NCBI GenBank assembly: GCA_964570895.1
Contig: CAZMZD010000006.1
Span: 11,447 to 75,446, forward strand
Origin: an uncultured Gammaproteobacteria bacterium
GTDB lineage: Bacteria; Cyanobacteriota; Vampirovibrionia; Gastranaerophilales; Gastranaerophilaceae
DNA length: 64,000 nt
Direction of reading: 5' to 3'
Of the stretch, positions 20,090 to 43,113 are shown in pieces. A model generated the notes under the pieces. That model was not told where the DNA came from. It ran no database searches and was given only the letters and a program-made list of their open reading frames with translations. Made by a program: the position numbers and the translations under genes. Each line of letters opens with the position of its first letter. The first letter of the stretch is position 1.

Positions 20090-20091
20090 CC

Positions 20092-20751: not shown

Positions 20752-20758
20752 TTTTACA

Positions 20759-21472: not shown

Positions 21473-21473
21473 T

Positions 21474-22289: not shown

Positions 22290-22292
22290 TTA

Positions 22293-22931
22293 TTAAAACT
22301 CTTGATTATTGTTTTTTACATATAAGCCGAGAGCAAAAGGTTTGTAAGAATTTACTTCAGACTTAAGGGCATAATTTTCTTTGTTTAGGTTATTAATTTT
22401 TTCTCTTAAGCTTTCATTTTCGGTTTTGGCTCTAATAAGTTCCATTATAACTTCATCCAAGCCATCCATTTTTTCTGAAAGTAAAGATGTCATTTTTGAG
22501 ATAATATTTTCTTCAACTTTAGAAAGACTGCTTTCAATTTTGGCAAGCGCTGTGCCCTGAGAAGCAACAGAGCGAGGAGCGCGAGCTACCATTTGTTGTT
22601 TTCTGTTCATTTCGCCAATTTCAGCTTGAACTTGTTTTCTTGCTTGAATAAGATTTTTTTGCTTTGCAATTAGCGCTGACGCTTCTTCAGACATGAAAGT
22701 TTTTTCTCTTGTTGTTTGAACTCTTTTTGCGCTAAACAAATTTTTAACTTTTTTCAAAATTTCTACATCAGCTTTTGTGAAGTACAAATTGCCAAACTCA
22801 TCTCTTTTTGGCTTTAAATTTGTCTTTTCGCATAATGCTTCTATTTCTGTAATGTTCGTGTCTAGTAATTCTTGTACTTTCATAGCACTTATAACTTCGT
22901 TGTTTGCTCTAAATTCCCTTACGCTCGTCAA
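22293..22931 (-). CDS. Hypothetical HTH (MerR/excisionase-like) plus coiled-coil protein, first gene of the motAB block
   Basis: 212 aa with a TTG start and RBS aagagg. N-terminal MKVQELLDTNITEIEALCEKTNLKPKRDEFGNLYFTKADVEILKK looks like a short winged HTH. The remainder is heptad-rich. Confidence 0.4.
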   Translation of the reverse strand: MTSVREFRANNEVISAMKVQELLDTNITEIEALCEKTNLKPKRDEFGNLYFTKADVEILKKVKNLFSAKRVQTTREKTFMSEEASALIAKQKNLIQARKQVQAEIGEMNRKQQMVARAPRSVASQGTALAKIESSLSKVEENIISKMTSLLSEKMDGLDEVIMELIRAKTENESLREKINNLNKENYALKSEVNSYKPFALGLYVKNNNQEF

Positions 22932-23012
22932 TTTGTAAACCTCTTAACCCGTCTTTTTAATATTATAAATTAAAAATAAATAAAAAACGAATTATTAAGT
23001 ATTATGAAGCAA

Positions 23013-23025
23013 AAATGTAACATTT
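23013..23025. promoter_or_regulatory. Palindrome AAATGTAACATTT (candidate operator), upstream of the motAB block
   Basis: Perfect 13-nt palindrome. Related copies lie at 25146-25158, 27832-27846 and 27927-27940. Confidence 0.45.
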
Positions 23026-23042
23026 GAGCTTAATTTGTTATC

Positions 23043-24113
23043 TTAAGCTTGAGCCGGCGCGTTTTGTGCTGCCTGTTGCATTTGACCGGATAATTTGAGC
23101 AAAATCTCTTTGGCGACAACCGCGTCTTCTGCATACATAGTGTCGCTTTTATTTGCTTGAATATTGTTTAAAGTCGCAATTGTTTCTTCGTTTCCTATTG
23201 CGTAGCCCACATTTAGAATTGTGAGCGCCATTTGTCTAACTGAAGCAGAAGGGTCTTTCAAACTTTTATTCAAGAGGGCGGTAAGCGCAGGGTCTGATTT
23301 TCTTTCGTCGCTTTCTTTAAATCTTTTAAGGAGTTCCGTTGCGCCCGCTAAGCGAACTTTCGGGTCGCCGTCATTTAAAGTTCTTTCAAGGTTTTGTATA
23401 TATTCATTAGTTAAAGGTACTGTATTTTCTGTTTTTTGTTCTGCCTTTTGTTCTGCCTTTTGCTCCGGCGCAGGCGTTTGAGGGCTTGTTGCTTGAGCTT
23501 GAGTTAAATCTTGAGTGTTTTGGGCTTGCATTTGTTGAGGCGCAGGCATTTGCATAGCTTGTGGTGCTTGAGGAGCTTGCATTTGTTGAGGCTGTGGCAT
23601 TTGAACATTCGTTTGCCCGTCTTGCGCCGCAGGATAAGCATTTGCAGGCAGCGGCATTTGAGGCACTGTCATATTATTTTGTGGCATATAGTTTGAATAT
23701 GTTGTCGCAGGGTATGAATAATATGTGTTTTGCGGATAAATTGGCGCGCCATTAGTTGTTGTCGGGTTGAAAATGTTGATATTCACAGCTCCGCCTGCCG
23801 GAATGTTAACTCCTTGAGGATATATAGGCATTGTTTGCGCTTGCGTTTGTTGAAGTTCAGTTTGCGCTTGTTGCGCTTGCTGAGGTACAGTTTGCACTTG
23901 TTGCGCTTGTGGCATTTGCATAGCTTGTGGTGCAGGCATTTGAGGAGCTTGCATTTGTTGCGCTTGCGGCATTTGAACACCGGATGTTTGATATTGATTT
24001 TGCGCAGTTAAATCTGCAACAGGTGGCTTTGGCATATGCACTTGCGCCTGATTATTTGAAGTGTTCGGTTTAATACCTTGGTTAAAATAAGAATTGTTAT
24101 TAATTGCTTGCAC
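23043..24113 (-). CDS. Gln/Pro/Ala-rich protein with C-terminal HEAT-like repeats
   Basis: 356 aa with a GTG start and RBS aaggaagg. The N-terminal two thirds are low complexity (QMPQAQQMQAPQMPAPQAMQMPQAQQ, twice). The C-terminus carries DPKVRLAGATELLKRF and DPSASVRQMALTILN, typical HEAT/PBS-lyase repeats. Confidence 0.5.
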   Translation of the reverse strand: MQAINNNSYFNQGIKPNTSNNQAQVHMPKPPVADLTAQNQYQTSGVQMPQAQQMQAPQMPAPQAMQMPQAQQVQTVPQQAQQAQTELQQTQAQTMPIYPQGVNIPAGGAVNINIFNPTTTNGAPIYPQNTYYSYPATTYSNYMPQNNMTVPQMPLPANAYPAAQDGQTNVQMPQPQQMQAPQAPQAMQMPAPQQMQAQNTQDLTQAQATSPQTPAPEQKAEQKAEQKTENTVPLTNEYIQNLERTLNDGDPKVRLAGATELLKRFKESDERKSDPALTALLNKSLKDPSASVRQMALTILNVGYAIGNEETIATLNNIQANKSDTMYAEDAVVAKEILLKLSGQMQQAAQNAPAQA

Positions 24114-24183
24114 TATAAATACCTTCCTTTATATGTTTATAAAAACATTTAAAGAAAAATAATTGCCAAATTTTAACAAAAAG

Positions 24184-25080
24184 TTAATTTTCCCACATTT
24201 TTGACATTATTTGCTCATATTTGGAAGTCGAAAGCCCCATGTTATAAGCCGCGAGTTTTGAAACATAATTTGTCATCATGCCTGCTGAACTTTTTATCAT
24301 ATTCATTAAAGCACTGCAATCGCCCGTGCCTGAAAAAGATATCGCATTTTCAACAGCAGAGGATGCTGCTTCATAATTTTGGGTAAGCACCGATTTATTT
24401 GTTTCTAAGCTGGAATTGTGTTTATCTATGTTTTTAATCAAAGCTTCGACCACGCCATGAGCAGAATTTAAATCTTTCGCACTTGAAACAGTCACATTAA
24501 AACCTGCTATTGAAAAAGCCGTATCGAACTCCAACACTGAATTTTCAGTTCCTTCATAACCTATTTGAGCTTGAGCGGAATTTATATAATTTTCATTAAC
24601 ATCTTCATCAAGAACATAAGTGCCATCTTCTTCGCGCGTATATTTTCTAATGCTTAAAGGCTTATAATCGTGTTCGCCAAAAATGTTTGCCCCGTCGTAT
24701 GTAGTGCCATTTTTTAGTTCATATAATTCCCCAAGCAATTCGTTTATATTGCTTTGCGCAGCTGCAAACTCGCTTGATGAAGAAGTTTCGGTTAATGTAT
24801 TTAATTCTGTTTGAATTTTTTCCGCAATTTCTTTCATACCTTCAAGAGAATTTTGCGCAACGTTTATAAGAGCAATACCGTTTTGAGTGCTTTTTTGGAT
24901 TTCAAAATAATCACCTAGCCTATAATCAAAATCGATTGAAGAAGCGTAAGTGTCTTCATCAGAGCTTATGCTGCTTCCTTGCGAATAAGAAGAATAGTCT
25001 GAATATTGTTCAGCCTTAACCTGTCTTTCATAAACAGAGGTAAGGGTGTTTGTTTTGTAAAATCCTATCGCGCTAACCAT
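24184..25080 (-). CDS. Highly divergent flagellin-domain protein (flagellin/FlgL-like)
   Basis: The track ORF extends to TTG 25116. I prefer ATG 25080 (RBS gaagga), because the TTG overlaps the predicted sigma28 -10. QNGIALINVAQNSLEGMKEIAEKIQTELNTL resembles the flagellin N-domain (QDGIS.IQ.AEGAL.E....LQRMREL). NGTTYDGANIFG and the helical C-terminal part fit the fold loosely. Confidence 0.5.
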   Translation of the reverse strand: MVSAIGFYKTNTLTSVYERQVKAEQYSDYSSYSQGSSISSDEDTYASSIDFDYRLGDYFEIQKSTQNGIALINVAQNSLEGMKEIAEKIQTELNTLTETSSSSEFAAAQSNINELLGELYELKNGTTYDGANIFGEHDYKPLSIRKYTREEDGTYVLDEDVNENYINSAQAQIGYEGTENSVLEFDTAFSIAGFNVTVSSAKDLNSAHGVVEALIKNIDKHNSSLETNKSVLTQNYEAASSAVENAISFSGTGDCSALMNMIKSSAGMMTNYVSKLAAYNMGLSTSKYEQIMSKMWEN

Positions 25081-25115
25081 ATCATCCTTCTGTGTGTTTA
25101 GTTTACTTATTCCCA

Positions 25116-25143
25116 ACTACGGCAAAATATAGCCAAAAATTTA
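25116..25143 (-). promoter_or_regulatory. Sigma28-type promoter candidate for the flagellin-like gene
   Basis: The minus strand reads TAAATTTT-N12-GCCGTAGT, against the consensus TAAAGTTT-N11-GCCGATAA. The -35 element matches well (7/8). The -10 element is only partial. Confidence 0.4.
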
Positions 25144-25145
25144 GA

Positions 25146-25158
25146 AAATGTTACATTT
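25146..25158. promoter_or_regulatory. Palindrome AAATGTTACATTT (candidate operator)
   Basis: Perfect palindrome lying 3 bp upstream of the sigma28-type -35 element of the flagellin-like gene. Confidence 0.45.
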
Positions 25159-25166
25159 CTTTACAT

Positions 25167-25332
25167 GCGAGCGAAGCTCGAGCTATAGCGCGACTGCGCT
25201 TAGCGAGAGCGAGCGAGCCAAAGGTGTGTGACGTGTGAAGACGGTTGCGATGAGCAAGCGGCGAACACGAAACCGTACCCCACGAGCGAAGCTCGAGCTA
25301 TAGCGCGACTGCGCTTAGCGAGAGCGAGCGAG
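25167..25332 (+). repeat. Two ~50-bp direct repeats (25167-25217, 25283-25332) flanking an inverted copy of the 4358-4432 module
   Basis: cgagcgaagctcgagctatagcgcgactgcgcttagcgagagcgagcgag occurs twice, 115 bp apart. Confidence 0.85.
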
Positions 25333-25368
25333 TTAGAACTTCGCCCCAACAGTGCAACATTAAGTCGT

Positions 25369-25403
25369 CATGCTGAACTCGTTTCAGCATCTTACCAACT
25401 AAT
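25369..25403. repeat. Hairpin module catgctgaa..ttcagcatcttaccaactaat (copy 1 in this locus)
   Basis: Inverted relative of the 3' end of the 305-bp unit (4118-4147). A second copy lies at 25554-25590. Confidence 0.7.
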
Positions 25404-25477
25404 AAGCCTCAACATTGTTCGCTATGTTTCAAGGTTTATAAGACCCTGAAATAAATTCAGGGTGACAGATTATAGTT

Positions 25478-25499
25478 CGTAGGTCAGGCATTGCCAGAC
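25478..25499. repeat. REP-like GTAG-headed palindrome
   Basis: cgtaggtcaggcattgccagac. Confidence 0.65.
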
Positions 25500-25552
25500 A
25501 AACCAAAATCGTAAGGTTGGAATTTCTACCACAACAGCGCAATATTTAACGG

Positions 25553-25640
25553 TCATGCTGAACTTGTTTCAGAATCTTACCAACTAATGCAGCGCAACGT
25601 TCACTTTTTACTCCTTCATTTTCTTTCTTTGCTATGCCAA
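25553..25640 (-). repeat. Partial inverted copy of the 3' part of the 305-bp unit
   Basis: gtcatgctgaacttgtttcagaatcttaccaactaatgcagcgcaacg...cattttctttctttg corresponds to the reverse complement of about 4050-4147. Confidence 0.6.
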
Positions 25641-25644
25641 AATA

Positions 25645-25653
25645 TGCTACAAT
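25645..25653 (+). promoter_or_regulatory. Extended -10 promoter candidate (TGcTACAAT)
   Basis: tgctacaat lies about 28 nt upstream of the ATG at 25681. No convincing -35 element was seen. Confidence 0.4.
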
Positions 25654-25680
25654 ACAGAACATAAAGAAATTGAGGGCAAA

Positions 25681-25845
25681 ATGGGCTTTTTTGATAAATT
25701 AAAAAATCTTTTGTTAGGGAAAATTACAGACGAAGAAATTGCTACCACAGAATGGCTATATTGCCCAAAATGCCAAATGAACTATGAAAAAGACATCATA
25801 GCAGATAACCATGGAAAATGCCCAAAATGCGGCGAGCAGCTGTAG
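25681..25845 (+). CDS. Small zinc-ribbon protein (54 aa), not in the ORF track
   Basis: My translation is MGFFDKLKNLLLGKITDEEIATTEWLYCPKCQMNYEKDIIADNHGKCPKCGEQL. It has two CPxC knuckles and RBS gaggg 4 nt before the ATG. A REP-like hairpin follows directly after the stop. Confidence 0.45.
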   Translation: MGFFDKLKNLLLGKITDEEIATTEWLYCPKCQMNYEKDIIADNHGKCPKCGEQL

Positions 25846-25848
25846 CTC

Positions 25849-25873
25849 GTAGGTTGGGCATACTTGCCCAACC
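25849..25873. repeat. REP-like GTAG-headed palindrome (variant core)
   Basis: gtaggttgggcatacttgcccaacc. Confidence 0.6.
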
Positions 25874-25888
25874 GCGTTAAGTTGCAGA

Positions 25889-25905
25889 GTGCGTTTATAC
25901 GCACC
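25889..25905. repeat. Palindrome gtgcgtttatacgcac
   Basis: Same family as ggtgcgtataaacgcacc at 36342-36363. Confidence 0.55.
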
Positions 25906-25927
25906 GCAGAATTGTTTATTTTGATTT

Positions 25928-25948
25928 GTCAGGCGGTGCTTGACCTAC
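25928..25948. repeat. REP-like palindrome ending in CTAC
   Basis: gtcaggcggtgcttgacctac, followed by gagctacggg. Confidence 0.6.
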
Positions 25949-25968
25949 GAGCTACGGGCTATTTAGTC

Positions 25969-26568
25969 CTAACGTTTTGGCCAGCTGGAGTTTTTTGTAC
26001 AATTTCTCATATATTCAAAAAATGGCTCTTTAAGATTATATCCGTCGCCATGCTTGAATATTTCCCCATCTTCTAAATAGTAGTATGTTCCATAACGATT
26101 ATCTTTGGAAAATATCGAACTACACATGTGTCCACTCATAAATTCCTTCCCATCTTTATAAAACGTTCCTTCAAGCTCCCTGCCAAGAGTGCTTCTATAT
26201 GTCACTTCGTCTATTATCCCGTTTGTGAAAACTTTGGTTTCCCTTCTATTAAAACCGATTGCGCCAACGTTAGATTTAATTTTCCCTGTGAATTTTTCGC
26301 CCGTTTCTTTATTCACAAGAACATTATCTCTAAATTCCAAACCCTTTTTTGCAATGTTTTCTTCAAATGTGCTTTTAGATAAAACACCCGCGACAATTGC
26401 AAGCGCTCCTGCCGCTCCTATAATCAACGGCATATATTTGCGGATTTTCTTGCGTATTTCTGATTTTTCCGCTCTTTTTTGGTTTTCTTGAGGTGCAGTA
26501 TTTTGAACCTTTTTAAAAGCCACACGGGACACGCTTTTGTTAACATATTTTATTGGCTGAATTTTCAT
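25969..26568 (-). CDS. Hypothetical membrane-anchored protein (one TM helix; weak MORN/YwqK-like repeats)
   Basis: 199 aa. N-terminus MKIQPIKYVNKSVSRVAFKK, TM helix YMPLIIGAAGALAIVAGVLS, then G-x-aromatic repeat-like segments (FTGKIKSN, GTFYKDGKEF, YYYLEDGEIFKHGDGYN). Its start overlaps the upstream gene by 4 nt (ATGA). Confidence 0.4.
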   Translation of the reverse strand: MKIQPIKYVNKSVSRVAFKKVQNTAPQENQKRAEKSEIRKKIRKYMPLIIGAAGALAIVAGVLSKSTFEENIAKKGLEFRDNVLVNKETGEKFTGKIKSNVGAIGFNRRETKVFTNGIIDEVTYRSTLGRELEGTFYKDGKEFMSGHMCSSIFSKDNRYGTYYYLEDGEIFKHGDGYNLKEPFFEYMRNCTKNSSWPKR

Positions 26569-27752
26569 CGTTCTATTTTATTCCTTAACATTAAGTCGTT
26601 TCTTTCGTCGAGTTTTTTAGTTGTTTCTTTATTAAAATCAAATAAACTATCTGCTAATTCAGCAAAAATTGACCTTTTGGAAACTTTGTTTTTTATTTTT
26701 TCAACAAATAAAGCTTTTTCTATATCACAATTCCTTCGAAAATGATTTTCAGCACTTTCTAACGTGCTATACAAAAACGTTTTTTGAGGTGCTTTTTCTT
26801 TTATTGTTTCAACAACAGGGAGCACTTCTTTTGCTTGAATTGTTTCAAGATATTCTGCAACATCATTTGCAACTTCTTCCGCTTTTTTGATATCGCCATT
26901 CCACACTTGTTGAGTGTAATAATCAAGATAAGACTGCGGAGTAGAGTATCTATATTGCCATCTGTTGCTGAAAATGTTAGCATAGTCTAAATCTTTTAGT
27001 GAACCTGTGAATTTATCATTACTATCAAGATTATTGCAGACATCTTTTGTTATTCTCTCTGCCATAAATTCATTCATATTTTCTGCAGAATATCTGCCAA
27101 GCTTGCATTTTGCTATAAGCTGCCCTATTGAAGTTGGTATTTTTGTTTTATTTAATTTGGACATCACATCTGCGTTACCATTGATATATAAATTTTTAAA
27201 ATGTGCACTATGTCCAAATTCATGAACGAATAATTGCAAATGGTTGGCAGTTGGGCTCCACCATTTTAATTTTTCTTTAATTTCTTGCAGTTGTAATTTT
27301 AATTCTGAATCAAAAAAATCATAATCGGAATTAAACCAAATTTCATTGCTGTCACCATATTTATAATGCTGATGCGCACCAAGCCAATTTTGTGTTTTCG
27401 GATCAGTGAATTTTTCTTTAAAAGAAGTAAATCCAACTATTTTTGGCAAACTGCTTGAACCAAACAATTCTTTAAACAATTCAACTGTTTTTTGTGTGCA
27501 TTTTGCAACAAGGTCATTGTCTTTAAAATCACATTTCATACCTTCTTCAAGCAAAACTTTTTCAATCCGCCCAGCTTCTAATAAAAGGTTTGAAGTGAAT
27601 GCAATTTTTGAACGATTATTTTCATATTTATCCGCAAAATCCAAAACATCTTGTGAAATAGGTTTTGGTGATTTTTCATACACAACCTTGCTTGCAAAAC
27701 TCAAATTGTTTCTTTTTGTAACATTAACACCTGAAATTAGATTTACTTTCAT
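26565..27752 (-). CDS. Putative zinc metallopeptidase (HExxH)
   Basis: 395 aa. The only clear motif is LFVHEFGHSAHF (HExxH). There is no signal peptide. The N-terminus is MKVNLISGVNVTKRNNLSFASK. Confidence 0.45.
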   Translation of the reverse strand: MKVNLISGVNVTKRNNLSFASKVVYEKSPKPISQDVLDFADKYENNRSKIAFTSNLLLEAGRIEKVLLEEGMKCDFKDNDLVAKCTQKTVELFKELFGSSSLPKIVGFTSFKEKFTDPKTQNWLGAHQHYKYGDSNEIWFNSDYDFFDSELKLQLQEIKEKLKWWSPTANHLQLFVHEFGHSAHFKNLYINGNADVMSKLNKTKIPTSIGQLIAKCKLGRYSAENMNEFMAERITKDVCNNLDSNDKFTGSLKDLDYANIFSNRWQYRYSTPQSYLDYYTQQVWNGDIKKAEEVANDVAEYLETIQAKEVLPVVETIKEKAPQKTFLYSTLESAENHFRRNCDIEKALFVEKIKNKVSKRSIFAELADSLFDFNKETTKKLDERNDLMLRNKIER

Positions 27753-32203: not shown

Positions 32204-32851
32204 TTACGCTTGAAATGATTTTTTAGTTGGGTCTTGCTCTTTTGGTTTTCTAAATGAAGAAATTATATTATATAAAAGTGCAATCATTATACCCGTTCTT
32301 ACGCCTGACGCGATTAAATTAGGGCGATTCATAGATTTTGTTGCCTTTTTAGCTTTTTTAATCAAATCTGACTCTGAAGCATTTTTAATCAGCTCTTCCG
32401 CTTTTTCTTTTGCCAATTTGCAAGCATTATCATAAGATTTTTTAAACTCTTCCAATTTTTCAGGATTTGGCAATTTTTTAAGTTCTTCTTTTCCTGCTGC
32501 AATAGCGTCTATAATATCTTGCCCCTTATTTGGAATAGCTTCTTTGCTTGCAATATCTTTAGTTATTATATCTGCCTTCAGCGCATTATTATACAAGGTA
32601 TGTTTATCAAAAAAATCCTGCGCAATTGATTTAAGAGAAGAATTACTGCCTTCCACTCTTGCTTCATCAAGCACTTTTTCAATAGCCGGCTTGCATGGCA
32701 TAAAACTAACAGCCGTGCCGATTGCACCGCCAACAACAGCACCACTTGCTGCTGTTAATGCTGTTCCTAAAAGGCTTGCCTTAGCGCTTGCTTTTGCTTC
32801 TGCTTTTTCTTGTGGTGTGGCTTTTGCGCCAAAAGATACTGTCATACCCAT
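32204..32851 (-). CDS. Hypothetical membrane protein (glycine-zipper helix, helical K/E-rich middle, C-terminal TM)
   Basis: 215 aa with N-terminus MGMTVSFGAKA, then LLGTALTAASGAVVGGAIGTAVSF. The C-terminal TM helix is GVRTGIMIALLYNIISSF. Confidence 0.4.
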   Translation of the reverse strand: MGMTVSFGAKATPQEKAEAKASAKASLLGTALTAASGAVVGGAIGTAVSFMPCKPAIEKVLDEARVEGSNSSLKSIAQDFFDKHTLYNNALKADIITKDIASKEAIPNKGQDIIDAIAAGKEELKKLPNPEKLEEFKKSYDNACKLAKEKAEELIKNASESDLIKKAKKATKSMNRPNLIASGVRTGIMIALLYNIISSFRKPKEQDPTKKSFQA

Positions 32852-36893: not shown

Positions 36894-37826
36894 TTAGCCG
36901 ATTAACTGAATTGCAAGTGATGGTAATTGGTTAGCTTGAGCCAACACCGCAGTTGCAGTTTGTTCAAGAATTTGGTATTTCACCATATCTGAGCTTGCTT
37001 CCGCAATATCAACATCGGTAATTCTTGATTTCGCTGTTTCAAGGTTTTCTACGGTTGTCGCCAAGTTGTCATAGGTCGCATCCATACGGTTTGTATAGGC
37101 ACCTAATAAACCTCTTGCACTTGATATTGTGTTAATTGAGTATTGGACATCTTCCATATATTTACGGAATGCGTCGCCAAATGCTGCGTCAGCTGAGCCA
37201 ACATAAGCTTCAATTGCTGCTTCATCGCCAAATTTATCACTGTTTGGATCTAAACAATCAGGCAGTTTCAAGCCTATGCCACCTGCGTCAACTGTTGTTT
37301 TACCTAAAGCAGACAAGTTACAATCTGTTAATGATTTTTTGACATCGATTGTGTTTGTTTCTTTATCTGTTCCTGCGCCGATTTGGATAATTACTTGTTC
37401 CAATTCGCCGTCAAGAAGGTTTCGACCGTTGTAGTTTACACTGTTCGCTGTGTTTTCGATGTCGATTAATCTTTGATCAATTTCAACCATAATTGATCTA
37501 CGAGCTTCTAAATCGTTGATATCAGAAGCGCCTTGAACCAACAGTTCGTTGATTCTTTGTAAGTGGTCGCCTACGGTAATCATACCGCCTTCTGCGATTT
37601 GCACGAAGTTTTTACCATCTTCGATGTTGTCCATCGCTTTGTTTGAACCACTAATTTGGAATTTAAGTCTTTCGGCGATTGCAAGACCTGCAGCGTCATC
37701 TCCGGCAACATTAATTCTGTAACCTGTAGAAAGCTGGGTCATCGCCTTTTCTAAACTTTTAACGTTTGAGTTAAGCCTATTCTGGGCGATTAACGCAGAA
37801 ACGTTAGTGTTTACACGGATTGCCAT
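36894..37826 (-). CDS. fliC: Flagellin
   Basis: 310 aa. The N-terminus MAIRVNTNVSALIAQNRLN...LSTGYRINVAGDDAAGLAIAERL and the C-terminus ..ITDVDIAEASSDMVKYQILEQTATAVLAQANQLPSLAIQLIG form the canonical D0/D1 flagellin ends. Confidence 0.92.
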   Translation of the reverse strand: MAIRVNTNVSALIAQNRLNSNVKSLEKAMTQLSTGYRINVAGDDAAGLAIAERLKFQISGSNKAMDNIEDGKNFVQIAEGGMITVGDHLQRINELLVQGASDINDLEARRSIMVEIDQRLIDIENTANSVNYNGRNLLDGELEQVIIQIGAGTDKETNTIDVKKSLTDCNLSALGKTTVDAGGIGLKLPDCLDPNSDKFGDEAAIEAYVGSADAAFGDAFRKYMEDVQYSINTISSARGLLGAYTNRMDATYDNLATTVENLETAKSRITDVDIAEASSDMVKYQILEQTATAVLAQANQLPSLAIQLIG

Positions 37827-37863: not shown

Positions 37864-37940
37864 GTATAACGAAATTATCTTTTACAACTTTAGTTATAAA
37901 AAAACCAACCTAAGTTGTAGAAAACGGGCAAAACCCTGTC

Positions 37941-37967
37941 ATAGCGGCGTTTTTCAAGCTGTAATTA
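37941..37967 (-). promoter_or_regulatory. Sigma28-type promoter candidate for flagellin
   Basis: The minus strand reads TAAT-N15-GCCGCTAT against the Bacillus sigmaD-type TAAA-N15-GCCGATAT. It predicts a ~105-nt leader. Confidence 0.5.
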
Positions 37968-38019
37968 AACTTGAAGAATATCCTCCATATGGTGTAGAAA
38001 ATGGGAAATTTTGTGTAAT

Positions 38020-40401
38020 TTAAGGGGTGTTTGAGCCATTTTCAGCACTTAAATTTGCAAGCCTTCTTTTTTCATTTTGAAGCTTACTTAAATTTTGAGC
38101 CATGTTAGAAATTTCATATTCAAGAGCAGATATTGTGTCATCTATGTTCAAATTTGCAAGCATATCTTTTGTGGTTTGTTCTTCAGTTTTTAATTCTTCA
38201 AGCTTTTCTCTTGTGTTGTTTTTCAAAATATTGGCTTCTGCTTGTTCTATTTGTTGTTGCAATTTAGTTATTTGTTTATCTAAATTAGCACCGGACCCAG
38301 CAGCAGATTTTGCTTGTTTAATTTGTGCCTGAAGCTCTTTTCTTTTATCTTGCAAGGATAAAAGCTTAATTTCAGGGTTCAAATTCATCTCTGCAATTTT
38401 TGCTTCAACTGAACTTAGGGCTTCAGAGAGAACAAAATCATATTTGCTTGCATTATTGCTTGAAACGTTTGAAGCTTGGAATTTCTTAAACATTGTTTTC
38501 ATTTTGGCAAGTTTATCAGTTAATTCCTTATACTTTGTGACATTCTTTTTATCTGAAATTGAAATGTTGCCAAAGTTTTTCACAATGTCGTCGTTTAAGC
38601 GGATAATGCCGGACATAAGTGTTTCTTCGTATTCTTTTGTTTCTTTTGTTTTTTGAACGCATTCTTCGCTTTGCAAACGGCGGATCTTATCTGCCTTATC
38701 TTTTAGTTCAGAATATTGCCTCAAGCTTTCTGCGCTCATGCGTGCTGAAGGTTTTGTTTTTGAAAGCTCTGCAATTTCACGGTCAAGCGCTTCAAGCTCG
38801 CATGTGAGGTCTTGGGCAGTTGTTGTGTTTTTTTGCGCCTCCGCTTTTTTATCAAACAAACTTTGAAGGCGAAGTTTTAAAGTGTCTAAATTTTCAACCT
38901 CTGCTTCAAGTTTAACAATTTCAGAAGCGATAGTTTCCGGCATTCTGATTGATTTTTTCGAGCTTTCAATTTCTTCATTTAAAGATTTTATCTGTGCGTG
39001 GCATTTTATTTCTTCTTCTTTTGCAATATTTGCGCGAGCAGTAAGCTCAGAGTCGCGCTCTGCTTCAATAGCAAGCTGTCTGCTTTTCATTCTTTTTGGA
39101 ATTTCTTCAAGACGCTCTTTTTTCTTGGCACGTCTATCTTGTTGAGTCTTAATTTCTGAATATTCTTTTCTTAACCTTTTGACAGCTTGTTTTAAACCCG
39201 ATAAAGTTTCTTCTTGAGAAGATAATTTTTTATATGCGTTAAATGTAGTGTCTTGTTCGTATTGCTCTGATTTAGCTTTTAATTCATCTAATTTATTTCT
39301 TTTTGCTTCAAGCGATTTTTCCAATTTCAAAATTCTTGCGTTAATTCTTTTTTCGACATTTTCTTTGGGAGCTTCTTCTTCCACGTCAAATTTTTTCTTT
39401 TCTCTTGCAACTTCTTCACCAAGCTCTTTGGAAAATGTTTCTAAAATTTCTTTTGGGTAAGTTGCATATTCTTCACCTAATTCACCGGTTTGTATTTTTG
39501 CTTCAACCTCTTGCAAGTATTTATCAAAATTCACTTTGAAATTAGGTCTTTGCATAATCCATTCGGAATATGGCATATTTGAGCGCCTAGAATTGCAGTC
39601 TGCGCACATTACTATATAGTTTGAAGTGTCGTTCGCGCCGCCTTTTGAAGCTGGGGTGACATGCTCTGTGGAGGCAAGAGCGCCGGAGAATAATCTGCGC
39701 GCAATGTCTTCATTTGATTTTTTTGAAAACGAAGCATAAAAAGCACTTTCAGAGTTTGATGAAGCAGGGATTTTCTCAGCCATCTCAACTAAAAAATTCG
39801 CTTCTTCCCCTTGCTCTTCAGGGGGAATCAACCCTTTTAATTTTTCAATAAAATCTTGTCTTCTAAAATATTTTTCGTTTTCATAATCAGGATTTGCGAT
39901 TAATTCTTTTTGCTCTTTAATAAATTTCTTTATATTATCTTTTGTTTCTTGTTTAAAATTCTTAGAATTTCTCTCAACTGAATCAAGCACTTTGACTTGT
40001 GCGTCCACAAGCTCGGACATGTATTTTGAGCTTAAAGACCTCATGATGGCTTTTAAATCTTTGTTTTTGTCGCTAAGTGCTTCAAAGATTATGTTTTTAA
40101 TTATTTTATTTTCAATCGCACGGTAGTATGAAGATTTTTGCTGAAGTTCATAAACAAGCTCCGGCCCTTTTAAATCTTTCATTTTTCTCACGTACGTATC
40201 AAGTTGCTTTGTTTGTATTGTTTTTTCGCCACACGAAGCGCAAGGCATTGCATAAATGTTTCTCGGTGCAAAACTGTCTTTTGAGCAAGCAAAACCCGTG
40301 AATGAAAATGGGTTTGAGAAATTATTTCCATAGCTTTTAACGCCTTGTTGTTTAGGCTTAGGCTGTTTAAAACTATAAAAATTTATTGGTTTTATTATCA
40401 T
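38020..40401 (-). CDS. HNH-motif nuclease with ~500-aa C-terminal coiled coil
   Basis: 793 aa. The HNH signature STEHVTPASKGGANDTSNYIVMCADCNSRRSNMPYSEW lies at aa 244-281, with an isolated CASCGEK at aa 54-60. From about aa 290 to the end the sequence is K/E/L/Q heptad-rich. The start overlaps the helicase stop (TAATG). Confidence 0.65.
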   Translation of the reverse strand: MIIKPINFYSFKQPKPKQQGVKSYGNNFSNPFSFTGFACSKDSFAPRNIYAMPCASCGEKTIQTKQLDTYVRKMKDLKGPELVYELQQKSSYYRAIENKIIKNIIFEALSDKNKDLKAIMRSLSSKYMSELVDAQVKVLDSVERNSKNFKQETKDNIKKFIKEQKELIANPDYENEKYFRRQDFIEKLKGLIPPEEQGEEANFLVEMAEKIPASSNSESAFYASFSKKSNEDIARRLFSGALASTEHVTPASKGGANDTSNYIVMCADCNSRRSNMPYSEWIMQRPNFKVNFDKYLQEVEAKIQTGELGEEYATYPKEILETFSKELGEEVAREKKKFDVEEEAPKENVEKRINARILKLEKSLEAKRNKLDELKAKSEQYEQDTTFNAYKKLSSQEETLSGLKQAVKRLRKEYSEIKTQQDRRAKKKERLEEIPKRMKSRQLAIEAERDSELTARANIAKEEEIKCHAQIKSLNEEIESSKKSIRMPETIASEIVKLEAEVENLDTLKLRLQSLFDKKAEAQKNTTTAQDLTCELEALDREIAELSKTKPSARMSAESLRQYSELKDKADKIRRLQSEECVQKTKETKEYEETLMSGIIRLNDDIVKNFGNISISDKKNVTKYKELTDKLAKMKTMFKKFQASNVSSNNASKYDFVLSEALSSVEAKIAEMNLNPEIKLLSLQDKRKELQAQIKQAKSAAGSGANLDKQITKLQQQIEQAEANILKNNTREKLEELKTEEQTTKDMLANLNIDDTISALEYEISNMAQNLSKLQNEKRRLANLSAENGSNTP

Positions 40402-43022
40402 TATGCTACCGAGGTGCCATCATACAATGGCGGTTTTTTAAGTTTTTCTACCGCTTCTTGCGCTGTGCATATTAAATATTCATAATAATATTTATCGTCA
40501 TCATTTGTTGAGTTTTCAAGCGCATATTCTGAAATGTTTATAATTTGTTTCAAAACATCGACTGATTGGCTCAAAACAGAATAAACATCGCCTTCAAAAA
40601 TGTGTTTGAACGGGTTATATCTAAAGCCCAAATATTCTTTTTCATTTTTTCTGACAGTTGGGTCTTTCAAGATATTTTTAAAGTTGTTTGCAGAATTGTC
40701 ATTATATTCAGTTTGGTTGAGCCAAGAATATGCAATGTAGCTTGAGAAAATATCTATGTCGTTTGTTTCGTCTGCAATTCTATTTTCTTTTTCAGCTCTT
40801 TGCAATCTTTCGCATAAATCTTCTGCATCACACAAAGTGTCTAGAATGTCATATTTGCCTTCTTCTTCGCAATAATAAACAAACAAGTCATTTATTAATT
40901 TCTTTGTTTCTTCATTTTCAAAGTTTACGCCTGAATCAATAAGCCCAGCGGCAAACGCAGCAAGCTCAGACGGGCTCAACCTGCCAAGTTTTTTATCTGC
41001 AATCATTTTCACAAGCACAAGTTCATTGTAGCCGTGTGCTTTTGTGAGCAAATTGCCCATAGGAGTAGTTTTATAGCCCCTTGGCGTTTTTTCAAGGAAC
41101 TTGAATTTTTCAAGCACATGCTCATATTTGTTAATTTTATTATTTAAGCGATTTTTTGATTTTATCGGGTTTGCTTTTTGCGCTTGATACATATACAAAG
41201 ACTTGTCTAGAAGATAATCTAAGCCTTCTTTATCGTCGCTTTGCATATAATATGAAGCAAGGAAATTATAGCTTGTTGAATATTTACTTGTTATCGCATT
41301 TGGATTTGAGAAAATATATTTCTTCGCAATTTCTTTATCACTGTTTGATAAGTTATAAAGAATAACGTCGCCGATTTTATCTATACCGCGGCGCCCAGCG
41401 CGACCTGACATTTGTTGGAATTCGTTAACTGTTATTGGAGAATAGCCATCAAGCGCTTTGTCGTCCGGCTTATCCAATTGCGTGATTACAACTGACCTAG
41501 CAGGCATATTAATACCTGCAGATAATGTGCTCGTTGCAAACACAACTTTTAACAATTTTTTAGAGAACAACTCTTCAACAAGTTTCTTGTATCCAGGCAT
41601 TAACCCCGCATGGTGCGAAGCAATACCTGACATAAGATCGTGTTCATTAAAATGTTTTCCTAAGTATACATTTTTTTCTTTATATTCATGGATAATTTTT
41701 TGAATTTGCTCTTTTTCCTCTGGAGTTGTGAGGTTAAGACCTTCGTCAATAAGATTTTTTACATTCATATCGCAAGCATTTCTTGAAAACTTAAATATGA
41801 TTGCAGGAAGTTTTCTCGCGTCGTCTAAATCATGAATTAGAGTTTTGAAGTCTTCTTGAGGCCTTTTTTGATTTTTAGAAGATAGTACATTGCGGTTTAA
41901 TTCGCGAGAATCGTGGTCTAAAAGAAGTTGGGTCACTTCGCGCGCAACATGTTCTTTAAGTGCGAATTGTTCTTGAATTGTTTTTGAAAAATCAGTGTGT
42001 TTAACATGTTCTTCTTCAAACAATGAGAACAGTTTTTCTTGTGCTTCAGCAGATGTTATATCATTTTTATCCGCCAAAATTTCAATCGCACGTTTTTCTT
42101 TATCCGTGAAAGCACCTTCTTGCGCTCTTTCTTTCATTGAGGCAATATTTATGCTGCCCTTGACTATTTCTTTGAAAGGCTCTTTTTCACCTTTGGCATA
42201 TTCTTGGAACACAAGCGGAACAAACCTTTCTTTGTGGCTTGCTTCAATCAAATTTGTTTTCTTTTTTGTAATTGAATCAATCCAAGAAGAAAATTCTTGC
42301 GCGTTGCCGACTGTTGCGCTCAATGGCAAAATTTGCATATTTTGAGGAGTGAACACAATTGATTCTTCCCAAATTTTTCCTCTTTCATGTTCATCTATAT
42401 AGTGCGCTTCGTCAAACACAACTGTGTTTACATCTTTAAAACGGCTTTTTGTAGGGTCTGAAAATTCATTCAGCGCCATGTTTCTATATATTTCAGTTGT
42501 CATAATGAGAACCGGCGCGTCTTTTTTAAGTTTAATGTCCCCTGTTAAAAGACCGACATTTTCTTCGCCATATATTTTGCAAAATTCTCTGTATTTATCG
42601 TTTGATAAGGCTTTTAGAGGGGTTGTGTAATATGTTTTTTTGCCTTCTTTTAAATTTTTTGTAATTACATAATTTGCAATTGCTGTTTTGCCAACACCTG
42701 TTGGAGCGATACAAACTGTGTTGTCACCATCGTATAAGCTTTTTGCCGAGCGAAGCTGCGTGTCATCCGGCATAGCTTGGAATTTTCTGCCTTTAGAGTC
42801 TTCTAAAATCGGCAATTGGAAATAATTTTGTTCGATTGTTTCATCAAAACTAGGCTCTGGCGCGCCTTTAAACAAAATTTGCTGATAATAACTTGCAGGA
42901 TAGCTTGTTATTTGCGAATTTTGCACGTTTTGTGAGCTTTGTTTAATGGGGTTTGAAGAATTGTTCGTTAGTTTTGAAACGCCTGTAAACGGCTTAAAAT
43001 TAGTTACTTTGTTTATCAACAT
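40401..43022 (-). CDS. Ski2/HelY-like DExH-box SF2 helicase
   Basis: 873 aa with motifs APTGVGKT (I), TPLKALSNDK (Ia), VFDEAHYI (II), LSATVGN (III), HHAGLMPGYK, FATSTLSAGINMPARSVV (V) and QMSGRAGRRGID (VI). The C-terminal helical region (TPMGNLLTKAHGYNELVLVKMI...LSPSELAAFAAGLI) resembles the DSHCT-type end of Ski2-like helicases. Confidence 0.85.
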   Translation of the reverse strand: MLINKVTNFKPFTGVSKLTNNSSNPIKQSSQNVQNSQITSYPASYYQQILFKGAPEPSFDETIEQNYFQLPILEDSKGRKFQAMPDDTQLRSAKSLYDGDNTVCIAPTGVGKTAIANYVITKNLKEGKKTYYTTPLKALSNDKYREFCKIYGEENVGLLTGDIKLKKDAPVLIMTTEIYRNMALNEFSDPTKSRFKDVNTVVFDEAHYIDEHERGKIWEESIVFTPQNMQILPLSATVGNAQEFSSWIDSITKKKTNLIEASHKERFVPLVFQEYAKGEKEPFKEIVKGSINIASMKERAQEGAFTDKEKRAIEILADKNDITSAEAQEKLFSLFEEEHVKHTDFSKTIQEQFALKEHVAREVTQLLLDHDSRELNRNVLSSKNQKRPQEDFKTLIHDLDDARKLPAIIFKFSRNACDMNVKNLIDEGLNLTTPEEKEQIQKIIHEYKEKNVYLGKHFNEHDLMSGIASHHAGLMPGYKKLVEELFSKKLLKVVFATSTLSAGINMPARSVVITQLDKPDDKALDGYSPITVNEFQQMSGRAGRRGIDKIGDVILYNLSNSDKEIAKKYIFSNPNAITSKYSTSYNFLASYYMQSDDKEGLDYLLDKSLYMYQAQKANPIKSKNRLNNKINKYEHVLEKFKFLEKTPRGYKTTPMGNLLTKAHGYNELVLVKMIADKKLGRLSPSELAAFAAGLIDSGVNFENEETKKLINDLFVYYCEEEGKYDILDTLCDAEDLCERLQRAEKENRIADETNDIDIFSSYIAYSWLNQTEYNDNSANNFKNILKDPTVRKNEKEYLGFRYNPFKHIFEGDVYSVLSQSVDVLKQIINISEYALENSTNDDDKYYYEYLICTAQEAVEKLKKPPLYDGTSVA

Positions 43023-43113
43023 ACAAATACCTATATTAGTATATGTATGTATAAATCATGAATAACTTTTTTTTGAACATGTAAAAAGGAAAATCGAAAC
43101 ATTCCTTAATATA

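What the first reader, a model, noticed from the sequence alone, without database searches (positions are those of the whole stretch)
38020..43022. Translationally coupled Ski2/HelY-like helicase plus HNH coiled-coil nuclease: candidate undescribed two-gene nucleic-acid surveillance/defence module
Two long minus-strand ORFs share one base (TAATG at 40401), so they are very likely co-transcribed and co-translated.

The upstream 873-aa protein carries the complete SF2 DExH motif set of Ski2/HelY/Mtr4-type helicases:
- APTGVGKT, TPLKALSNDK, DEAH, SAT, FATSTLSAGINMPARSVV, QMSGRAGRRG.
- A DSHCT-like helical C-terminus.
- About 100 aa of N-terminal low-complexity extension.

The downstream 793-aa protein has three notable parts:
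- A clear HNH beta-beta-alpha-metal signature (EHV.P.S.GG.N...N....C..CN..R, nt 39547-39684).
- A lone CxxC about 190 aa upstream of it. In McrA-type HNH domains the first CxxC sits 10-20 aa before the His, so this finger looks split by a helical insert.
- About 500 residues of heptad-rich coiled coil, comparable in scale to SMC/Rad50-type proteins.

Known helicase-nuclease defence pairs use different partners. Hachiman pairs a Ski2-like HamB with a DUF1837 nuclease. Gabija pairs a UvrD-like helicase with an OLD nuclease. Zorya II uses the HNH protein ZorE with MotAB-like ZorAB. I know of no described system with this architecture.

The pair sits as an isolated cassette between flagellin and a nitroreductase gene, with its own AT-rich upstream region.
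Basis: partly seen in the sequence, partly recalled or inferred. Interest (0 to 1): 0.82.

Follow-up and report, generated by a model that had tools for sequence, protein, structure and literature searches.

The report
Conserved Ski2-type helicase plus HNH-nuclease operon
Two overlapping genes in an uncultured gut relative of cyanobacteria encode an RNA-type helicase and an unclassified zinc-stabilised HNH nuclease with a long helical tail; the pair is inherited together among ordinary core genes, so it looks like a lineage-specific nucleic-acid processing complex, not a mobile anti-phage cassette.

Summary
Two minus-strand ORFs (40401-43022, 873 aa; 38020-40401, 793 aa) share one base (TAATG).

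- **Helicase.** It is a Ski2/Mtr4/HelY-type SF2 helicase with a DSHCT domain.
- **Partner.** It has an HNH core whose catalytic and zinc residues are nearly invariant in 149 relatives. The core sits in a helical head domain that matches no solved or viral structure.
- **Tail.** It is a segmented helical rod, not an SMC/Rad50-scale coiled coil.
- **Pairing is real.** The lineage is Candidatus Gastranaerophilales. Helicase and partner sit -4 to +13 nt apart in at least five different neighbourhoods, down to 36% helicase identity. Two natural helicase-head-domain fusions exist.
- **Defence is not supported.** Every neighbourhood is housekeeping and syntenic. GC is native, no family member turned up in phage, plasmid or viral collections, and no defence model matches beyond generic helicase similarity.
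- **Flagellin adjacency is clade-specific.** Flagellin has its own conserved sigma-28 promoter.

Most likely this is a vertically inherited helicase-nuclease complex acting on 3'-tailed RNA, RNA:DNA hybrids or DNA. The substrate is unknown.

A side finding: both protein families, and a few unrelated enzymes, share an unexplained two-part N-terminal leader.

The parts
40401..43022 (-). Ski2/Mtr4/HelY-type SF2 DExH helicase, 873 aa
   Evidence: ORF; Pfam DEAD, Helicase_C and DSHCT; PDB Ski2 3e-73 and Mtr4 about 1e-63, against Hel308 1e-42 and HamB 1e-16,
42768..43022 (-). Helicase N-terminal leader or extension (about residues 1-85): MLINKVTNFKPFTG ... ILFKG
   Evidence: Sequence. The same two-part leader is on all Ski2-like paralogue groups of the lineage and is enriched against other ORFs
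42294..42761 (-). RecA1 (DEAD) domain, residues 88-243, with motifs I, Ia, II (DEAH) and III
41385..41678 (-). RecA2 (Helicase_C), residues 449-546, with motifs V and VI
40524..41072 (-). DSHCT C-terminal helical domain, residues 651-833
   Evidence: Pfam PF08148, 28.8 bits, above the 22.7 cut-off
40399..40403 (-). TAATG stop/start overlap; A40401 is shared
   Evidence: Junctions of -4 to +13 nt in all other paired loci
38020..40401 (-). Partner protein, 793 aa: leader, CxxC-helical-HNH head domain, helical tail
40303..40401 (-). Partner N-terminal leader, residues 1-33 (MIIKPINFYSFKQ...); disordered in the models
40231..40242 (-). First CxxC (C54, C57), the proposed half of a split Cys4 zinc site
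   Evidence: Conserved in at least 90% of 149 relatives; coordinates
39685..40230 (-). Helical insert, residues 58-239 (helices 64-239 in the model); no structural match
   Evidence: AlphaFold pLDDT 80-95; Foldseek against PDB and BFVD found no global match
39547..39684 (-). HNH beta-beta-alpha-metal core, residues 240-285: E246-H247, N261, C266xxC269-N270, R273, W281
   Evidence: Pfam; strands 242-247 and 262-266 and helix 267-273; residue conservation; closest solved cores are type II-C Cas9 HNH and IscB
39397..39546 (-). Conserved helical region after the HNH core, residues 286-335 (Y295, Y312, Y315), completing the head domain
38023..39396 (-). Segmented alpha-helical tail, residues 336-793; fast-evolving; conserved C-terminal motif LNIDDTI at 38131-38151
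   Evidence: Helices; 23% identity against 46% for the head; C-terminal motif enriched
43023..43113 (-). 91-nt AT-rich spacer between the nitroreductase gene and the helicase; no terminator-like site and no sigma-28 match
37867..37892 (-). Sigma-28-type promoter of the flagellin gene (TAAAGTTG-N11-TTCGTTAT). It is not part of the module and marks its 3' boundary
   Evidence: Only match in the window; conserved in 7 loci
36894..37826 (-). Flagellin gene, a clade-specific downstream neighbour with its own promoter

Best explanation
This is a vertically inherited, lineage-specific helicase-nuclease complex of Candidatus Gastranaerophilales, the non-photosynthetic gut relatives of cyanobacteria.

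**Shown**
- The upstream gene encodes a Ski2/Mtr4/HelY-type DExH helicase with a DSHCT domain.
- The downstream gene, translated by stop/start overlap, encodes a partner protein.
- The partner's head is an IscB/Cas9-type HNH nuclease core embedded in a helical domain that matches no known structure.
- The partner's tail is a segmented helical rod that ends in a conserved motif.

**Inferred**
- The CxxC at residues 54-57 completes the HNH zinc site across a 190-aa helical insert.
- The two proteins bind each other. The helicase loads on a 3' single-stranded tail and translocates 3'-to-5', unwinding RNA duplexes, RNA:DNA hybrids or DNA. The HNH head cuts the substrate that this exposes.
- The tail oligomerises or docks the complex.
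- The role is endogenous nucleic-acid processing (RNA decay, R-loop removal or repair), not mobile anti-phage defence.

The substrate is not established.
For: **Identity of the two proteins**
- Helicase.
- Partner: H247 is invariant, and E246, N261, N270, C54, C57, C266 and C269 are conserved in at least 90% of 149 relatives.
- The beta-beta-alpha fold is modelled at pLDDT about 80.

**Functional coupling**
- Junctions of -4 to +13 nt occur in the window, L001, L002, L007-9, L017, L018, L020, L021 and L023. Helicase identity in these falls from 88% to 36%.
- The flanks differ: nitroreductase/HisRS, FtsH, ClpXP/DapB, CCA-adding enzyme, PGK/UvrA/SmpB.
- Two helicase homologues (P0215, P0218) carry the head domain fused at their C-terminus (phmmer 2.6e-21 and 7.8e-17).
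- Matching longest-contig lengths suggest two or three more co-located pairs.

**Housekeeping rather than mobile**
- No integrase, transposase or defence gene was called within about 7-8 kb, or to the contig end, in any locus.
- Against the L002 relative, neighbours are 62-76% identical, the helicase 58% and the partner 32%.
- GC is 0.350 against 0.363 for the window.
- No family member was found in IMG/VR, INPHARED or PLSDB.
- PADLOC gives only partial generic helicase hits and a coiled-coil hit.
Against: - No biochemical data exist for any member, and the substrate (RNA, hybrid or DNA) is pure inference.
- The partner evolves much faster than its neighbours and has many paralogues and tandem duplicates. 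That is more typical of conflict systems than of housekeeping enzymes.
- Some long-form partners lack an adjacent helicase (L003-6, L019).
- The fused versions have lost H247 and N270, so binding, not cutting, may be the conserved job of the head domain.
- Presence or absence across complete genomes of the order could not be surveyed. 'Core gene' therefore rests on synteny in the loci recovered, all of which were found because they carry the genes.
Confidence: 0.5

Rival explanations
1. It is a chromosomally fixed anti-phage or anti-plasmid defence system that works like Hachiman. The helicase senses foreign or damaged nucleic-acid ends and licenses the HNH nuclease to degrade DNA.
For: - Helicase-plus-nuclease two-gene logic.
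- The partner evolves fast: 32% identity against 58-76% for the helicase and neighbours.
- The head-domain family is large (276 clusters at E<1e-30), with several paralogues per genome and tandem copies behind one helicase.
- Partial PADLOC hits of the helicase to PDC-M23B, HamB and SngC.
Against: - No defence or mobile genes occur in any of the neighbourhoods examined. Synteny with core genes is stable.
- GC is native.
- No member was found in viral, phage or plasmid collections.
- The helicase is far closer to Ski2/Mtr4 (1e-73) than to HamB (1e-16).
- The partner matches no PADLOC nuclease model.
Confidence: 0.2
2. The partner is a flagellum-linked protein. Either it regulates flagellin mRNA together with the helicase, or it is a substrate of the flagellar type III export apparatus. 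That would explain why its gene sits directly upstream of flagellin.
For: - Flagellin lies immediately downstream in the window, L001, L002 and L007-8. It does so also in L003-6, where the helicase is absent and all other flanks differ.
- Flagellin lies 1.4 kb away in L017.
- The N-terminal leaders resemble flagellin N-termini (for example MVISAINAVSLNTYKQN), and flagellins score just below the leader threshold.
Against: - Flagellin has its own conserved sigma-28 promoter and upstream element. These stay with flagellin when an opposite-strand gene intervenes (L017).
- No sigma-28 match lies upstream of the helicase.
- No flagellin adjoins the pair or the partner in L019, L020, L021 or L023, and none lies in the 1.1 kb held downstream of the L018 pair.
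- The flagellin-adjacent members are the closest relatives of one another (top), which is what inherited synteny predicts.
Confidence: 0.07
3. The HNH head is a non-catalytic nucleic-acid- or helicase-binding module. The protein would then be a structural adaptor or scaffold for the helicase, not a nuclease.
For: - The two natural helicase fusions keep the CxxC, the helical insert and the second CxxC. They have H247 replaced by M or Q and N270 by E or K.
- Some family members have lost the cysteines (P0034).
- The tail and its conserved C-terminal motifs suggest a scaffolding role.
Against: - In the free-standing family H247 is invariant, and E246, N261 and N270 are conserved in at least 90% of 149 sequences. 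That includes every helicase-adjacent partner inspected. Such conservation is hard to explain without catalysis.
Confidence: 0.1

Closest known systems
Bacterial HelY and eukaryotic Ski2/Mtr4 (Ski2-like SF2 helicases with a DSHCT domain)
   Same: - Full DExH motif set, RecA1 plus RecA2 plus a C-terminal DSHCT helical domain.
- Best solved relatives by sequence are Ski2 and Mtr4.
- From my own knowledge: Mycobacterium smegmatis HelY is a 3'-to-5' helicase that unwinds 3'-tailed RNA duplexes and RNA:DNA hybrids (Uson, Ordonez and Shuman 2015). Ski2 and Mtr4 feed RNA to a nuclease, the exosome.
   Different: - No arch/KOW insertion was detected.
- It has an insert of about 120 aa between RecA1 and RecA2, and a lineage-specific N-terminal leader of about 85 aa.
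- Its partner is an HNH protein encoded in the same operon. To my knowledge that is not described for HelY, Ski2 or Mtr4.
Hachiman (HamA DUF1837 nuclease plus HamB helicase)
   Same: A two-gene helicase-plus-nuclease arrangement. The helicase gives partial matches to HamB models and a weak match to solved HamB (1e-16).
   Different: - The nuclease is an HNH with a helical tail, not DUF1837.
- Gene order here is helicase first.
- The helicase is much closer to Ski2/Mtr4.
- The context is core genome, not a defence island.
IscB / type II-C Cas9 HNH domains
   Same: The closest sequence relatives of the beta-beta-alpha core are Cas9 8d2k (profile E 0.0026) and annotated iscB genes. The core shares the (D/E)H...N...N catalytic pattern and the P-(F/Y)-x-x-W motif after it.
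   Different: - Similarity covers only about 40-65 residues.
- There is no RuvC domain, no guide-RNA-binding domain and no CRISPR context.
- This HNH keeps a Cys4 zinc site whose first CxxC lies 190 aa upstream.
SMC/Rad50/SbcC-type coiled-coil nuclease machines and Lamassu LmuB
   Same: A long helical region next to a nuclease function. There are weak Foldseek hits to Rad50 and SMC arms (best E 2e-3, TM about 0.1) and a weak PADLOC LmuB hit over residues 318-575.
   Different: - No ABC ATPase head, hinge or zinc hook.
- The tail is broken into helices of 20-60 residues.
- The matches reflect composition and shape only.

Membership tests
Ski2-like (Ski2/Mtr4/HelY) SF2 helicases | Complete DExH motif set I, Ia, II, III, V and VI in two RecA-like domains | tested here: met
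   Motifs located; Pfam DEAD 1.2e-24 and Helicase_C 5.9e-8
Ski2-like (Ski2/Mtr4/HelY) SF2 helicases | C-terminal DSHCT helical domain | tested here: met
   PF08148, 28.8 bits, above the 22.7 cut-off, residues 651-833
Ski2-like (Ski2/Mtr4/HelY) SF2 helicases | Closer to Ski2/Mtr4 than to other SF2 clades | tested here: met
   PDB phmmer: Ski2 3e-73, Mtr4 about 1e-63, Hel308 1e-42, Brr2 1e-32, HamB 1e-16
Ski2-like (Ski2/Mtr4/HelY) SF2 helicases | Arch/KOW insertion of eukaryotic Ski2 and Mtr4 | tested here: not met
   No arch-domain Pfam hit. Only about 60 residues lie between the end of RecA2 and the start of DSHCT, so it fits the arch-less bacterial type
Ski2-like (Ski2/Mtr4/HelY) SF2 helicases | RNA-stimulated ATPase with 3'-to-5' unwinding | not testable with these tools
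   Needs purified protein
HNH / beta-beta-alpha-metal nucleases | Beta-hairpin plus helix fold | tested here: met
   AlphaFold gives strands 242-247 and 262-266 and helix 267-273. Local Foldseek matches to Cas9 HNH and phage HNH proteins have E of 0.3 or above and are not significant
HNH / beta-beta-alpha-metal nucleases | Catalytic His and metal-ligand Asp/Glu and Asn | tested here: met
   H247 is invariant; E246, N261 and N270 are conserved in at least 90% of 149 sequences
HNH / beta-beta-alpha-metal nucleases | Cys4 structural zinc site | tested here: inconclusive
   C54, C57, C266 and C269 are conserved in at least 90%, and C39 is also invariant in 16 diverse members.
Hachiman | HamA (DUF1837) nuclease encoded next to the HamB helicase | tested here: not met
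   The partner has no DUF1837 and no PADLOC HamA hit
Hachiman | Helicase matches HamB models over their full length | tested here: not met
   In the strongest HamB hits the best matched stretch covers mainly RecA2 (residues about 380-650); E 1e-25 to 1e-11
SMC/Rad50-type coiled-coil proteins (including Lamassu LmuB) | ABC ATPase head with a long antiparallel coiled coil and a hinge or hook | tested here: not met
   No ATPase domain; segmented helices; Foldseek TM about 0.1
Known defence systems with an HNH partner (Zorya II ZorE, Septu PtuB and others in PADLOC) | Match to the system's HNH protein model and presence of its partner genes | tested here: not met
   PADLOC returned only a weak LmuB coiled-coil hit for the partner. 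No MotAB-like or ATPase partner genes lie nearby

The most novel reading that the evidence does not exclude
The pair would be a bacterial counterpart of the eukaryotic Ski2/Mtr4-plus-nuclease arrangement: an RNA or R-loop surveillance machine in which a Ski2-type helicase hands substrate to an HNH nuclease.

It would also be one node of a larger lineage-specific system. That system would be defined by the shared two-part N-terminal leader carried by every Ski2-like helicase paralogue, by every CxxC-helical-HNH paralogue, and by a few unrelated enzymes. The leader would then be a new targeting, export or processing signal.
Probability: 0.2. Interest if true: 0.8.

Novelty: new variant of a known kind. 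Interest (0 to 1): 0.5.

Why it matters
- Bacterial Ski2-like helicases are barely studied, and to my knowledge none has a defined nuclease partner.
- A conserved operon and natural fusions linking one to an HNH nuclease give a concrete, testable complex. It may show how a Ski2-type motor is coupled to cleavage outside eukaryotes and archaea.
- The work defines a sizeable protein family with no annotation (at least 276 clusters at 50% identity). It also defines a shared N-terminal leader in an uncultured gut lineage related to cyanobacteria.
- The practical lesson for scans like this one: helicase-plus-nuclease architecture alone does not indicate a defence system. Context has to be checked.

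Tried and rejected
**Searches that led nowhere**
- The word-indexed protein search with the head domain alone found one fragment. The exhaustive HMMER search was needed to find the family.
- Alignment A3 was too diverse for locus finding.
- The metagenome scan returned only a locus already held.
- The viral scan returned only generic HNH cores of 38-42 residues.
- Foldseek of the head domain against PDB and BFVD gave no global match. Foldseek of the full-length model against PDB gave only generic coiled-coil hits.
- Paper searches found nothing on this pair, on bacterial Ski2-like plus HNH operons, or on a Melainabacteria N-terminal signal. Two searches failed on term syntax.

**Ideas rejected**
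- SMC/Rad50-like architecture: no ATPase head and segmented helices.
- Co-transcription with flagellin as the reason for adjacency: flagellin has its own sigma-28 promoter.
- Lipoprotein or Sec signal in the leader: no hydrophobic core in any of 278 family proteins.

**Ideas left open**
- The leader may be a Prp/L27-type cleavage site. No L27 gene is in the sequence held.
Full report
**Observation**

The window carries two minus-strand ORFs exactly where stated: 40401-43022 (873 aa) and 38020-40401 (793 aa). The helicase stop and the partner start overlap as TAATG, sharing A40401. All the quoted helicase motifs are present. Pfam gives DEAD, Helicase_C and DSHCT, the last above its curated cut-off. 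The best solved relatives by sequence are Ski2 (3e-73) and Mtr4 (about 1e-63), well ahead of Hel308 (1e-42) and Hachiman HamB (1e-16).

In the partner, Pfam HNH_5 and HNH match only residues 243-275. NCBIfam finds nothing, and PADLOC finds only a weak coiled-coil match to LmuB. GC of the pair (0.350) equals that of the window (0.363).

**Lineage and family size**

Record titles of related genome contigs name Candidatus Gastranaerophilales, from MAGs of goat, sheep and other gut samples. Named helicase relatives carry the same taxon.

The word-indexed search found only 11 relatives of the partner. An exhaustive HMMER search used a profile of its first 330 residues against 1.84 billion cluster representatives. 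It found 1566 hits at E<=1e-3, 780 at <=1e-10 and 276 at <=1e-30. Nearly all of the 150 best hits listed match the whole 300-residue domain.

Members fall into two size classes. One is about 340-420 aa, the head domain only. The other is about 700-960 aa, head plus helical tail. None of those checked carries a name in the source databases.

**Anatomy of the partner**

- **Conservation.** Across 149 diverse members H247 is invariant. C54, C57, E246, N261, C266, C269, N270 and R273 are conserved in at least 90%. C39, F34, F44 and W281 are also invariant in a 16-member set.
- **Catalytic pattern.** E246-H247...N261...N270 is the catalytic pattern of the Cas9 HNH domain (D839-H840...N854...N863, from my own knowledge).
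- **Closest cores.** The closest solved cores are type II-C Cas9 HNH domains (profile E 0.0026). The only plasmid hits are annotated iscB genes, matched over 43-65 residues.
- **Head-domain model.** AlphaFold (6 sequences, pLDDT 80, pTM 0.67) gives a helical bundle between the first CxxC and a beta-beta-alpha unit, followed by further helices. Foldseek finds no global match in PDB or BFVD, only non-significant local HNH-core matches.
- **Split finger.** I could not measure the zinc geometry.
- **Tail.** The full-length model (pLDDT 74) shows helices 349-382, 385-432, 436-484 and 488-547. A disordered stretch at 550-587 follows, then seven helices of 20-38 residues. Foldseek gives only generic Rad50 and SMC-arm hits with TM about 0.1. 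This is a segmented helical rod, not an SMC/Rad50-type arm, and there is no ATPase head.
- **Tail ends are conserved.** A motif h-[DN]-I-[DE]-x-x-I (LNIDDTI here) lies within the last 110 residues in 23 of 68 long members. The background is 0.018 per 110 residues. Another subgroup ends in ...YN..IL..L..Y..MSNEEF....

**Is the pair a unit?**

Yes. Helicase and partner are adjacent, with junctions of -4 to +13 nt, in these loci:

| Locus | Helicase identity to the window | Upstream or flanking context |
|---|---|---|
| Window, L001, L007-9 | 83-88% | Nitroreductase |
| L002 | 58% | Nitroreductase |
| L017 | 54% | FtsH-like gene |
| L018 | 46% | Short contig |
| L020 | 36% | ClpXP, trigger factor, DapB |
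| L021 | 39% | Two tandem partners |
| L023 | 36% | Two tandem partners; PGK, RsfS, UvrA, SmpB |

Three further lines of evidence bear on this.

- Matching longest-contig lengths suggest more co-located pairs: P0044/P0180, P0030/P0179 and P0287/P0195.
- Two helicase homologues, P0215 (1177 aa) and P0218 (1208 aa), carry the CxxC-helical-HNH domain fused to their C-terminus (phmmer 2.6e-21 and 7.8e-17). In them H247 is replaced by M or Q and N270 by E or K. Natural fusions are classical evidence of physical or functional interaction.
- A paralogous Ski2-like helicase group (P0252, 769 aa) is not paired.

Some long partners lack an adjacent helicase: the 610-aa forms in L003-6, and two tandem copies in L019.

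**Defence or housekeeping?**

Every neighbourhood consists of housekeeping genes. No integrase, transposase, restriction or other defence gene was called within 7-8 kb (or to the contig end) in any locus.

Gene order around the window's pair is kept in relatives. The table gives percent identity of each gene to its window orthologue.

| Compared with | Neighbouring genes | Helicase | Partner |
|---|---|---|---|
| L001 | 82-95% | 83% | 64% |
| L002 | 62-76% | 58% | 32% (head 46%, tail 23%) |

No family member was found in IMG/VR, INPHARED phages or PLSDB plasmids, and PHROGs matches only the HNH core. This is the pattern of a vertically inherited chromosomal operon.

Two features argue the other way: the partner's fast evolution and its many paralogues. 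Short forms occur after rplJ-rplL in L011 and L012, and tandem short forms occur in L013. I therefore keep a defence reading at about 0.2. A caveat applies: all loci were recovered because they contain the genes, so absence in close relatives was not tested.

**Flagellin**

Flagellin lies immediately downstream in the window's clade. It also does so in L003-6, where the helicase is missing and the other flanks differ. That first suggested a flagellar link.

The spacer, however, holds a sigma-28-type promoter (TAAAGTTG-N11-TTCGWTAW; window 37867-37892). It is the only such match in the window. An upstream element (window 37961-38000) sits beside it. Both are conserved in seven loci, including L017, where an opposite-strand peptidase gene separates the partner from flagellin. 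No such promoter precedes the helicase. No flagellin adjoins the genes in L019, L020, L021 or L023, and none lies in the 1.1 kb held downstream in L018. The flagellin-adjacent members are each other's closest relatives. Adjacency is therefore best read as inherited synteny.

**Mechanism**

Shown:
- An intact Ski2/HelY-type motor.
- An HNH core with a conserved active site and a probable zinc site.
- Stop/start coupling, conserved adjacency, and natural fusions.

Inferred:
- The proteins form a complex.
- The helicase engages 3' tails and moves 3'-to-5', as its relatives do.
- The HNH head cleaves the substrate that unwinding exposes.
- The tail, through its conserved C-terminus, oligomerises or docks the complex.

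The substrate is open. Ski2, Mtr4 and HelY point to RNA or RNA:DNA hybrids. HNH cores of the IscB/Cas9 type cut DNA.

**Novelty**

Helicase-nuclease pairs are a known kind. This partner architecture, and its coupling to a Ski2-type helicase, is not covered by Pfam, NCBIfam, PADLOC or PHROGs. The papers I could search do not describe it either. I rate it a new variant of a known kind, with interest 0.5.

**Side finding: a shared N-terminal leader**

All Ski2-like helicase paralogue groups of the lineage and all head-domain family members begin with a two-part leader. It reads M-x-I/V-x-P-I-x-N...F, then a basic or N-rich linker, then h-[SNT]-F-[KRTG]-G.

- A strict pattern is met by 72 of 278 family proteins against 2 of 106 other ORFs (Fisher p 2e-9). 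One of those two is the window's own partner protein, which the filter failed to exclude.
- The second motif occurs in residues 13-110 in 119 of 278 proteins, against 1 of 278 in residues 111-208.
- The leader has no hydrophobic core and is disordered in the models.
- The same leader sits on a GH77 glucanotransferase and an M16 peptidase in L013.
- It also sits on two unknown ORFs in the window (25969-27752) next to a flgL-like gene.

Its meaning is unexplained. It could be an export signal, a cleavage site like the Prp-processed L27 N-terminus, or a docking peptide. No L27 gene was in the sequence held.

Noticed in passing
window 42768-43022, 40303-40401, and the N-termini of ORFs 25969-26568(-) and 26565-27752(-); L013 12668-14806 and 15156-17996; all proteins P0001-P0279: A two-part N-terminal leader is shared by two unrelated families: all Ski2-like helicase paralogues and all CxxC-helical-HNH proteins. 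It reads M-x-I/V-x-P-I-x-N..F, then a basic or N-rich linker, then h-[SNT]-F-[KRTG]-G. A GH77 glucanotransferase, an M16 peptidase and two unknown ORFs carry it too. It has no hydrophobic core. It is enriched against other ORFs (Fisher p 2e-9). It could be an export, cleavage or docking signal; its function is unexplained.
   Followed up: partly
window 37867-37892(-) and 37961-38000(-); the same elements in L001, L002, L003, L006, L007 and L017: The flagellin upstream region is conserved over about 190 nt in seven diverged loci. It holds a sigma-28-type promoter (TAAAGTTG-N11-TTCGWTAW), an invariant upstream element (TTTCTACACCATTTGGAGGATATT...) of unknown role, and an invariant CAGGAGAGAGAAAAATG ribosome-binding region.
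   Followed up: partly
proteins P0215 (1177 aa) and P0218 (1208 aa): These are natural fusions of the Ski2-like helicase with a C-terminal CxxC-helical-HNH-like domain. The catalytic His and Asn are replaced (H to M or Q; N to E or K), while the cysteines are kept.
   Followed up: partly
L011 9908-10987; L012 5711-6805; L013 9374-10723 and 10695-11774; L019 85-2178 and 2183-4339; L021 9718-11973 and 11977-14118; L023 10679-12364 and 12368-15244: The head-domain family has several paralogues per genome. Short forms without a tail occur, for example after rplJ-rplL. Tandem duplicates occur, including two partners behind one helicase in L021 and L023.
   Followed up: partly
window 38131-38151(-) (LNIDDTI); C-termini of long family members: The fast-evolving tails end in one of two conserved motifs. 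One is h-[DN]-I-[DE]-x-x-I, found in 23 of 68 long members against a background of 0.018 per 110 aa. The other, in a separate subgroup, is ...YN..IL..L..Y..MSNEEF.... These may be docking sites.
   Followed up: partly
window 19382-27752(-): A flagellar gene cluster: FliN, FliL, MotB, MotA, a MerR-like gene, a HEAT-repeat protein with a Q/P-rich N-terminus, and a flgL-like gene. Two overlapping ORFs of unknown function (395 and 199 aa), both with the N-terminal leader, precede it.
   Followed up: partly
L017 10025-10050(-); L021 1955-1981(-): More sigma-28-type promoter matches lie directly upstream of a VanY/M15 peptidase gene (L017) and of a 125-aa ORF with a leader-like N-terminus (L021). 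These may be further members of the flagellar regulon.
   Followed up: no
window 32204-32851(-): A 215-aa ORF starting MGMTVSFGAK, with a weak HlyE-like Pfam hit (7e-4, below the cut-off). It is only 50% identical to its L001 orthologue, where neighbours are 82-95% identical.
   Followed up: no
L022 7001-13238; proteins P0211-P0279: The lineage has at least three size classes of Ski2-like helicase: about 745-800, 870-930 and 980-1210 aa. All carry the leader. The 769-aa paralogue P0252 is followed by a 1294-aa UvrD-like helicase instead of an HNH partner.
   Followed up: no
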